From Octopus vulgaris (Eukaryota), in the NCBI GenBank assembly GCA_951406725.2, contig OX597841.1, forward strand, positions 186,001 through 250,000: DNA of 64,000 nt, read 5' to 3'. The notes below the pieces were generated by a model, which worked only from the letters and a program-made list of their open reading frames with translations, had not been told where the DNA came from and made no database searches. The translations under genes and the position numbers were made by a program. Shown here in pieces: positions 46,801-48,437 of this stretch (position 1 is the stretch's first letter; the number at the start of each line of letters is the position of its first letter).

Positions 46801-48437
46801 GCTAGGCAGTATGGGATGTTACGTTTTGTATGTGGTGGATGGCACGACTTAAAATTTAGGTATTGATGTGTGTCTGTGTGTTTATAGTATATATCTGTGG
46901 TGATGGTGGTGTCTTTTTTAATTACCATTATATCTAGGAATGGTAATTTGGTACTACTCATCTCCTTTGTAAATTGGAGAGATGGGTGTAGGTTGTTCAG
47001 GAGGATATTGAACTCTTCCAGAGTATTTAGAGAGTATAAATATATATATATATATATAATATATAGACTTTAGGCTCGTAACCAATGAAATAGCTGTTAA
47101 ATTACCTCGATCAATAGAACTTGATCAATTTGTGCGTGTGTATGTGTCTGTTATATATTTACTCTTACTTTTCAGGTGAAACTGGTCATTTATAAAAACC
47201 AAACAGCTGTGGTGACTATGATATTTGATGGACGAAATTCAAGACATAATAACTGGTTCAGTTATGCAAACTTGAAAAGTTCTCCATGGGATGACCTATC
47301 TTCAGACAACCCGGGTTATTTCGCATATTTAGGATTTAGGTATGTTATCAATATTTTTTTCTCTTTCACTAGGTAGAGACGTATTGTCGTATTGTGCTAA
47401 AAGCACTTTTCTTATGGTACAAATACAAATCTGTTTTTTAAACTCTATATATTTATTCACGATATTTTCTTGATCTCGTTGTGAATATAACTTCAGTCTG
47501 AGAAAAGGATTCTATAGACGGCTTTTGGAGCTGTCAATGCAGATTCTAATAGAGTGGAATAGACGTCTATATATCATACCTAACGTAGACACACTCCCGA
47601 TAGGCCAGTTACTGCAATATTTGCCCTGAGATAACCTCTTTTTCTGTCATTGTCCGCTGCTGGAACGAATTTTCGTGTCACCGATATTTATTATTCGAAA
47701 CAAAGCAAATACATAGGAGATGTTTCCTCAGAGATTATACTACTAAAGTAACAAGTTTATTGACAGTGTGTTTATACTTTAAATATGATACACAAATGGC
47801 TATTTTAATTAAATACAGACTAATTCAAATGTGTGCATGGGACACAATGTTATATATATTAAATGCTTATATTTTCTCATTCTGAAACCCAAATAAGTAT
47901 TTTTCCAACTCTACAGTGTTCGTCGCTTCCTTATATCGGAAATCGGTGACTGTACGAGGGATAGAGGCTGGCTACAAATAATTGAATATGCAGGAGGATC
48001 CTGTGCATATGAGAACCTGGTTCGTTACCCTGAAATTCAATATTCTGATGCAAGCTCGAGTGTCATCTGGAACGACTGTAAGTGATGTTTTCATTTTGTG
48101 TGTTTGTGTATGTCTCTCTCTCTCTCTCACTCGCTCACTCTCTCTCTCTCTTAATGTGAGTAGTAATTGCAGAAGTTATTTTTGTACTTATTGTTCAGCA
48201 GCCAATCAGCCTTGATTCAACTAATTTATGATCTAAAGCGTTCTGACCGTGACCCACCTGTATGTTTCCCATTACACTTTGTGGAGATTTGGCTACCATT
48301 TCTATTAATACGAGTAACCGCGTAAGAAGACTTTCCACGATTTATTTCAATTCCTTTGGTTATTGATGTTGTTATTATTACTTGCAGGTTATGGAATAGC
48401 AGACTCCATGGCCATATTCATCAGCCTGAAGCCGTAG
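31554..48437 (+). CDS. Gene B: intact 5-coding-exon secreted protein, 295 aa (signal peptide + PAN/apple-like module + uncharacterised C-terminal domain)
   Basis: Exons 31554-31887, 42377-42555, 47176-47339, 47917-48077, 48388-48437 = 888 nt, open, GT-AG. Protein: MSLFLFTRPAAMEVLLLGLTTILAVTSGQEFDEAYYKRLGPGYSYAYIGTPPTQQQFPTARSRLECAGIALNSQSEFFTYNKVSRVCKNYSPKDIMTVVSTNDTNEISFYRYIRWIKTYALSMGAGSRIYNTWSNTGSLSNWRVDKCNGIYCPNFFRHPLLVFWDHLRIDEVKLVIYKNQTAVVTMIFDGRNSRHNNWFSYANLKSSPWDDLSSDNPGYFAYLGFSVRRFLISEIGDCTRDRGWLQIIEYAGGSCAYENLVRYPEIQYSDASSSVIWNDCYGIADSMAIFISLKP. Confidence 0.88.
32630..41100 (+). mobile_element. Decayed full-length Tx1-like LINE (ORF1 zinc knuckle, APE, RT) in intron 1 of gene B, interrupted by a satellite
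   Basis: CHLC(fs)RETGHLRTFCP knuckle at ~33572-33616; MVGLRIGSINFHDLVSPWKQGHLLNNL (APE start, ~38898); KSPGLDGLLYELY, NFRPIT*LN, NQSKAFERVD (RT, 39950-40360). Confidence 0.75.
33639..38245. repeat. Tandem satellite/minisatellite, 35-bp unit CCTGATCTCTAACAACATCAGATCTCCAAACAGCA, ~130 copies
   Basis: Direct reading; the unit is a 17+18 bp dimer of GATCTC-initiated subrepeats; no spacers. Confidence 0.97.
41375..42329 (-). mobile_element. Two copies (truncated 41375-41478, longer 41776-42329) of the (TAA)n-associated retroposon, separated by (TAA)n
   Basis: GAGTGAGAGAGCAGT..GCCATCAAAGTGACAC..GGGGTAAAATATACGAAGCCC start repeated. Confidence 0.65.
42377..42555 (+). CDS. Gene B exon 2
   Basis: tttcAG|AT ATC CGA TGG ... 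ATT GAT GAG|GTATGA; 179 nt. Confidence 0.88.
43680..44100 (+). mobile_element. CORE-type tRNA-derived SINE composite
   Basis: GTTTCGATTCC B-box followed by TGTGTTCTTGAGCAAAACACTT...CAGTCCACTCAGCTGGCAAAAATG (CORE-like); related to 58637-58964 and 53220-53590. Confidence 0.65.
44230..45108 (+). mobile_element. Non-autonomous Helitron
   Basis: A|TC 5' end; 3' hairpin CCCGGgcaacgCCGGG followed by CTAG|T; no TSD. The 5' ~200 bp matches 51910-52117 reversed. Confidence 0.8.
45192..45254 (+). ncRNA. Minimal hammerhead ribozyme motif
   Basis: AGAUAA-CCGAAGA-GAUG...CAUCu-GAAA-CUCaGAG-UU-UUAUCU: 6-bp stem I. Confidence 0.6.
45340..47022 (-). mobile_element. 5'-truncated Penelope-like element (RT C-terminus + GIY-YIG endonuclease) in intron 2 of gene B
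   Basis: ORF 46961-46026: LPFLDI...YYKHTDTHQYLNFKSCHP...NLIYCIKCPNCEEIYVGQTG...R..H; flanked by (TA)n; hammerhead motif in the 3' region. Confidence 0.9.
45487..45531 (-). ncRNA. Minimal type I hammerhead ribozyme motif (Penelope-associated)
   Basis: UGAAC-CCGAAGA-uUGCA..UGCAu-GAAA-GUAC-UA-GUUCA: perfect 5-bp stem I and palindromic stem III. Confidence 0.7.
47176..47339 (+). CDS. Gene B exon 3
   Basis: ttttcAG|VKLVIYKNQTAVVTMIFDGRNS...YLGF+AG|GTATGT; 164 nt. Confidence 0.88.
47917..48077 (+). CDS. Gene B exon 4
   Basis: ctacAG|T VRRFLISEIGDCTRDRGWLQIIEYAGGSCAYENLVRYPEIQYSDASSSVIWND+T|GTAAGT. Confidence 0.87.
48388..48437 (+). CDS. Gene B exon 5 (coding part)
   Basis: cttgcAG|GT YGIADSMAIFISLKP-TAG. 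Confidence 0.85.

What the first reader, a model, noticed from the sequence alone, without database searches (positions are those of the whole stretch)
47176..48077. Hypervariable patches alternate with invariant framework around the exon 3/4 junction and the Cys pair
Across A/B/C the framework (VKLVIYKNQT, FDGRNS, NWF, NLKSSPW.DLSS, GWL, CA, YSDA, ADSMAIFI) is fixed, while the loops differ in sequence and length: SSFSHGRETNAYR / GYFAYLGFSVRR / EYFQMKGVFGVRR; MNIGRCETTN / SEIGDCTRDR / TNHNGGCLVES; QMIIRT*Y / QIIEYAGGS / ALNEAGVY. The C-x4-GW-x(9-10)-C spacing loosely recalls the ligand-binding subdomain of fibrinogen-related domains. Inference: a scaffold with CDR-like variable loops on one face.
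Basis: partly seen in the sequence, partly recalled or inferred. Interest (0 to 1): 0.7.

Follow-up and report, generated by a model that had tools for sequence, protein, structure and literature searches.

The report
Fast-evolving octopus fibrinogen-like protein family
This is one of about 65 clustered octopus genes for a predicted secreted protein in which one region differs between copies faster than neutral change allows, likely a binding surface tuned to many targets such as microbes, in a family that protein databases leave unnamed.

The parts
31554..31887 (+). Gene B coding exon 1: ATG, likely signal peptide, PAN/apple-like domain (two Cys); phase-1 donor
42377..42555 (+). Gene B exon 2: start of the fibrinogen-like domain (first strand, helix, Cys-containing loop, helix); the exon most often exchanged between paralogues
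47176..47339 (+). Gene B exon 3: two central strands, conserved WF and SPW-x-D motifs, start of the variable zone at 47299
   Evidence: a paralogue contig starts at 47176 and joins exon 5 across both introns
47314..47339 (+). Patch 1 (continues to 47920 across the exon 3/4 junction); 7 positively selected columns
47917..48077 (+). Gene B exon 4: most of the variable zone (to 48034), invariant Cys codons at 47951 and 48002, GW, P, Y
47936..47965 (+). Patch 2 around the first Cys; 6 positively selected columns
47975..48001 (+). Patch 3 before the second Cys; 5 positively selected columns
48388..48437 (+). Gene B exon 5 coding part with stop: conserved last strand, no membrane anchor
5915..20357 (+). 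Gene A, pseudogene: exons 5915-6245, 17218-17396, 19082-19248, 19808-19965, 20308-20357; in-frame TGA at 19884-19886 inside patch 3
57778..63572 (-). Gene C exons 2-5 (63572-63394, 60284-60121, 58497-58334, 57833-57778), open; exon 1 lies outside the window at G000:C28:252453-252782

Best explanation
Gene B is an intact member of a tandem family of about 65 octopus genes whose products are predicted secreted two-domain proteins, a PAN/apple module plus a likely fibrinogen-related domain, and whose variable zone is under diversifying selection and likely forms the binding site of a germline-encoded recognition repertoire, most likely for microbial or parasite surfaces. Shown: gene structure, copy number, splicing of paralogues, dN/dS above 1 in the zone, exchange of exons between copies, pseudogenes. 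Predicted: PAN fold (firm), fibrinogen-like fold without subdomain A (probable). Inferred: the zone equals the FReD P subdomain; each copy binds a different surface ligand (glycan or protein); unequal crossing-over adds and removes copies, gene conversion swaps or homogenises the framework exon 2, and point substitutions in the zone are fixed by selection. The immune role is the least certain step.
Confidence: 0.55

Rival explanations
1. Same scaffold and selection, but the partners are not pathogens: prey targets (salivary or venom gland secretion), gamete or egg-coat recognition, or carriers of chemical cues in skin and suckers.
For: Secreted, duplicated, positively selected proteins fit venom and reproductive families as well (general knowledge). 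Nothing or 100 names a tissue. FReDs also bind proteins (angiopoietins, tenascin; PMC5928061, PMC5693923 passages).
Against: Homologues sit beside C-type lectin, F5/8, SUEL lectin, WSC, Sushi and TSP1 domains in many marine invertebrates, and the best fold rows are intelectins. About 65 copies with exon exchange is typical of recognition families (general knowledge).
Confidence: 0.3
2. Relaxed constraint plus gene conversion: the zone is a tolerant surface region and apparent w above 1 is an artefact of recombination and alignment.
For: Exon trees conflict strongly; mosaic null data inflate the test to 36; framework pN about equals pS in close pairs; many broken copies.
Against: Observed statistics 342 and 255 are about ten times the mosaic null; per-exon and gap-safe tests hold; tree-free pN is 1.8 times pS; the same sites differ between species (45 of 307).
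Confidence: 0.07
3. An antibody-like or FREP-like system with somatic or templated diversification of the loops, using orphan exons as donors.
For: Orphan exons and partial copies lie in the cluster; zone pS (0.083) exceeds flanking intron distance (0.044) and 68 of 192 differing codons in sister pairs differ at two or three positions.
Against: Complete copies have their own five exons. Only 5 of 30 difference clusters match a third copy, 1 on both sides. Pairs were picked for low intron distance, so the intron figure is biased low.
Confidence: 0.08

Closest known systems
Intelectins (human intelectin-1, Xenopus XEEL, lamprey LSVL)
   Different: 6-8% identity; intelectins keep subdomain A and a calcium-dependent site (own knowledge), the octopus proteins have a PAN domain in place of A and no invariant acidic residue in the zone.
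Canonical FReDs: ficolins, tachylectin 5, angiopoietin-like, fibrinogen C domains (PF00147)
   Different: No Pfam match, no subdomain A, no collagen or coiled-coil stalk. This genome's canonical FReDs are separate: 15 exon matches, none on C28.
Gastropod FREPs and bivalve expanded FReD/C1q/C-type lectin families
   Same: Molluscan, multigene, variable, FReD-type recognition; PAN/apple joined to FReDs is reported for a Biomphalaria FREP and some Lottia FReDs (PMC7588048, passages).
   Different: No IgSF domain; variability is in the fibrinogen-like domain itself; somatic diversification not shown; the domain is the non-canonical type.
Unnamed invertebrate domain family (1195 representatives at E <= 0.001) in corals, hemichordates, amphioxus, sea stars, bivalves, snails, brachiopods, flatworms, plus NF040941 'YCDxxxxGGGW' proteins
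   Same: True sequence homologues; often with PAN, EGF, lectin, Sushi or TSP1 domains.
   Different: No Pfam family covers the domain; the octopod expansion (Octopus, Argonauta) with one fixed PAN + domain layout is lineage-specific as far as these searches show.
PAN/apple domains (HGF N domain, Toxoplasma MIC4, factor XI apples)
   Different: Two Cys in gene B exon 1; below Pfam cut-offs (3 of 30 members, best E 0.005); less variable than the zone.

Membership tests
Canonical FReD (PF00147) | Profile match to Fibrinogen_C | tested here: not met
   0 of 30 members at E <= 1; no FReD by profile search of the PDB
Canonical FReD (PF00147) | Subdomain A (helix, two strands, disulfide, CD-x-GGGW) | tested here: not met
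   Motif absent upstream of the domain in the octopus proteins, PAN in its place; present in 5 homologues
FReD superfamily (fold) | Subdomain B sheet completed by the C-terminal strand, with P inserted before it | tested here: inconclusive
FReD superfamily (fold) | Disulfide in the P subdomain | tested here: inconclusive
   C-x4-GW-x(8-12)-C in 47 of 47 intact copies, both Cys at least 90% conserved in 122 homologues; bond itself not seen
Ficolin / intelectin lectins | Conserved calcium-binding acidic residues and sugar site | tested here: inconclusive
   No invariant D/E in the zone; D/E in 36, 33, 37 of 43 at columns 131, 139, 150; no residue-level structural alignment
Ficolin / intelectin lectins | Binding of glycans or microbes; oligomer formation | not testable with these tools
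   Needs recombinant protein; no complex prediction was run
FREP | One or two IgSF domains before the FReD | tested here: not met
   N-domain is PAN/apple
FREP | Somatic diversification | not testable with these tools
   Only assembled contigs were laid
Ig/TCR, VLR or Dscam-type repertoires | Array of variable segments joined to a shared constant part | tested here: not met
   Complete copies each have five coding exons in both orientations; some orphan exons exist
PAN/apple domain | Fold: central sheet cradling one helix | tested here: met
Birth-and-death multigene family under diversifying selection | Tandem copies, pseudogenes, w above 1 at clustered sites | tested here: met

The most novel reading that the evidence does not exclude
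This cluster is the octopod's main variable recognition repertoire: about 50 secreted PAN + non-canonical fibrinogen-like receptors, several times the canonical FReD count of the genome, whose binding subdomain is diversified by selection and recombined onto exchangeable framework exons. It would be the cephalopod counterpart of snail FREPs and bivalve lectin expansions, missed because no Pfam model covers the domain, and it would give a first function to a domain family spread across marine invertebrates.
Probability: 0.3. Interest if true: 0.8.

Novelty: new variant of a known kind. Interest (0 to 1): 0.6.

Why it matters
Cephalopods lack adaptive immunity, and an abstract seen here describes non-bivalve molluscs as having reduced C-type lectin repertoires (PMC10140915, search listing). 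A large, unannotated, positively selected family of predicted secreted binders is a direct candidate for how octopuses tell microbes apart. The 26 selected sites and the paralogue set make that testable. If the organ is instead the salivary gland, gonad or sucker, it is an equally useful lead for prey, gamete or cue recognition. The domain is also an unmodelled branch of the fibrinogen superfamily with over a thousand representatives.

Tried and rejected
Pfam on single exons and full proteins: nothing over cut-off. NCBIfam on three octopus proteins: none. PDB sequence searches: no FReD. Foldseek: no E under 0.001. Templated micro-conversion of the patches: 5 of 30 clusters matched a third copy, rejected as main source. 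Dscam or V(D)J layout: rejected. UniRef names 'C-type lectin domain-containing', 'Farnesoic acid O-methyl transferase domain-containing' and 'ADP-ribosyl cyclase' on single members are not backed by Pfam here and were set aside. Run search: no holder on record as RNA, and names are coded, so no tissue. Gene B exon 4 had no cover in X1, X2, X3, and X1 reads through the intron: no evidence either way. Skin-mucus proteome supplement (PMC10138644, file cut when stored): 0 hits for the LOC1187685 series; the rows shown for two other prefixes were unrelated proteins. The supplement of PMC11431876 could not be read; both may bear on tissue. Earlier findings: nothing. Literature searches without a description of the family: (one search was for FReD background); PMC9068888 main text has no 'PAN', 'apple', 'fibrinogen' or 'lectin'; the 2015 octopus genome paper was not held. 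3D clustering of variable sites could not be computed because model coordinates are not returned. Rows dropped: 18 of 67 exon-3 hits lacked full-length exon 2-5 models, 2 of 49 had stops, 4 of 47 were over 95% identical to another; 7 weaker matches on other contigs were not fetched.

Full report
1. Observation. The finding covers exons 3 and 4 of gene B exactly (47176-47339, 47917-48077). The window is G000:C28:186001-250000 of a 2.8 Gb genome; the nearest named proteins are 'uncharacterized' or 'hypothetical' proteins of Octopus and Argonauta. The quoted framework and loops are present in A, B and C. Tested on 41 other paralogues, the three patches have mean entropy 2.42 bits against 1.02 elsewhere (p 2e-10; 0 of 184 shifts). 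The real unit is one zone of about 55 residues (alignment columns 100-157) with scattered invariant residues (F, C, G, W, C, P). Loop lengths differ by one to a few codons.

2. Genes. B has five coding exons from 31554 to 48437 and an open frame of 295 codons; A has one stop at codon 252; C is open, with exon 1 beyond the window. The most hydrophobic 17-residue stretch of B starts at residue 10 (1.95) and nothing later exceeds 1.12, so a signal peptide without anchor is likely. Exon 3 matches 72 places in the genome, 64 on C28. In 1.26 Mb held there are 67 exon-3 hits (66 loci; 46 in the first 990 kb, 23 on each strand); 49 give full-length exon 2-5 models, 47 without a stop, and at least 37 have all five exons open by an automatic check that undercounts. 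Contigs of paralogues confirm the splice pattern: one in X2 starts at the exon 3 acceptor and joins exon 5 with 190 letters between; contigs in X3, X4 and X19 leave at the exon 1 donor into exon-2-like sequence. These runs are only guessed to be RNA or have no kind on record, and give no tissue.

4. Evolution. With my own codon-model code (fixed nucleotide tree with one scale, naive empirical Bayes; not PAML) on 43 copies and 183 codons: M2a vs M1a 342, M8 vs M8a 255, w 2.8-3.3 on 17% of sites. Per-exon trees give 89 (exon 3), 121 (exon 4), 35 (exon 2), gap-safe columns 185; exon 1 gives 42 (34 copies). Null simulations reach 8.7 without and 36 with exon mosaicism (10 each; some fits not fully converged), so exons 1 and 2 are not convincing while the zone is. 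Thirteen disjoint sister pairs give zone pN 0.153 against pS 0.083 (p 9e-5), framework 0.046 against 0.044. Against O. sinensis, close counterparts differ at 61 of 693 zone and 28 of 910 other positions (13 of 17 queries, two pairs sharing a counterpart). One contig of run X15 over B exon 4 differs at 47963-47964, a selected codon (allele or near-identical copy). Exons have different histories: exon 2 trees share 8 of 40 splits with exon 3 or 4 trees, AU tests reject the alternatives (biased towards each exon's own tree), and gene C is 1.7% from C28_49548 in exon 2 but 50% in the zone. Short templated tracts were not found (5 of 30 clusters).

5. Mechanism. Shown: duplication, loss, exon exchange, selection on the zone. 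Inferred: the zone is the ligand-binding P subdomain; copies differ in specificity; PAN may add a second binding or oligomer surface; the driver is most likely microbes or parasites, since homologues sit among lectin and complement-type modules and the closest folds are intelectins. Rivals are prey, gamete or cue recognition (0.3), artefact of relaxation and recombination (0.07) and somatic diversification (0.08). One-face clustering remains untested.

6. Known and new. It works like molluscan FReD/FREP or lectin expansions but fails membership of canonical FReDs (no Pfam match, no subdomain A) and of FREPs (no IgSF). PAN joined to FReDs is known in Biomphalaria and Lottia (PMC7588048, passages). 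Canonical FReDs give 15 exon matches in this genome, none on C28 (a lower bound). Nine paper searches (listings and abstract starts only, apart from the passages cited) showed no description of this family; subscription journals and most supplements were not searched. Verdict: real, a new variant of a known kind, interest 0.6.

Noticed in passing
window 46029-47069 (-): 347-codon open frame with a GIY-YIG domain (E 5e-6), likely the 3' part of a Penelope-like retroelement, in intron 2 of gene B about 100 bases before exon 3.
   Followed up: partly
window 33639-38245: 35-bp tandem array, about 134 copies, 94% matches, strongly C-skewed, in intron 1 of gene B.
   Followed up: partly
window 39504-40900 and 12000-13560: Stretches that look like LINE-type retroelement remnants in intron 1 of B and of A (read; no Pfam hit for 39504-40052).
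   Followed up: no
window 31363-31365: A contig of run X19 starts at a pyrimidine-rich AG site here with unlike sequence before it, suggesting an upstream non-coding exon.
   Followed up: no
G000:C28:463888-516280: Three near-identical copies at about 21-kb spacing; recent triplication or assembly redundancy.
   Followed up: no
G000:C28 at 80609, 107149, 594377, 715732, 773036, 801837, 855845, 905989, 911593: Orphan exons and partial copies inside the cluster, possible conversion donors.
   Followed up: partly
P0080, P0088, P0097, P0105: Large unnamed proteins with FG-GAP, TIG or MopE repeats, apparently microbial (origin not checked), carry the same domain behind a YCDxxxxGGGW module, often in tandem; an Atlas cluster with 44% viral members is also near.
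   Followed up: partly
P0063, P0079, P0168, P0212-P0216, P0228; P0230, P0231, P0238, P0239: Several copies from Ptychodera and Patiria come from contigs of the same length per species, hinting at independent clustered expansions of the domain.
   Followed up: no
G000:C4:36051263-36059500 and C28:5157411-5170488: A dispersed pair identical over the first 41 codons of exon 3 yet 20% different in the zone.
   Followed up: partly
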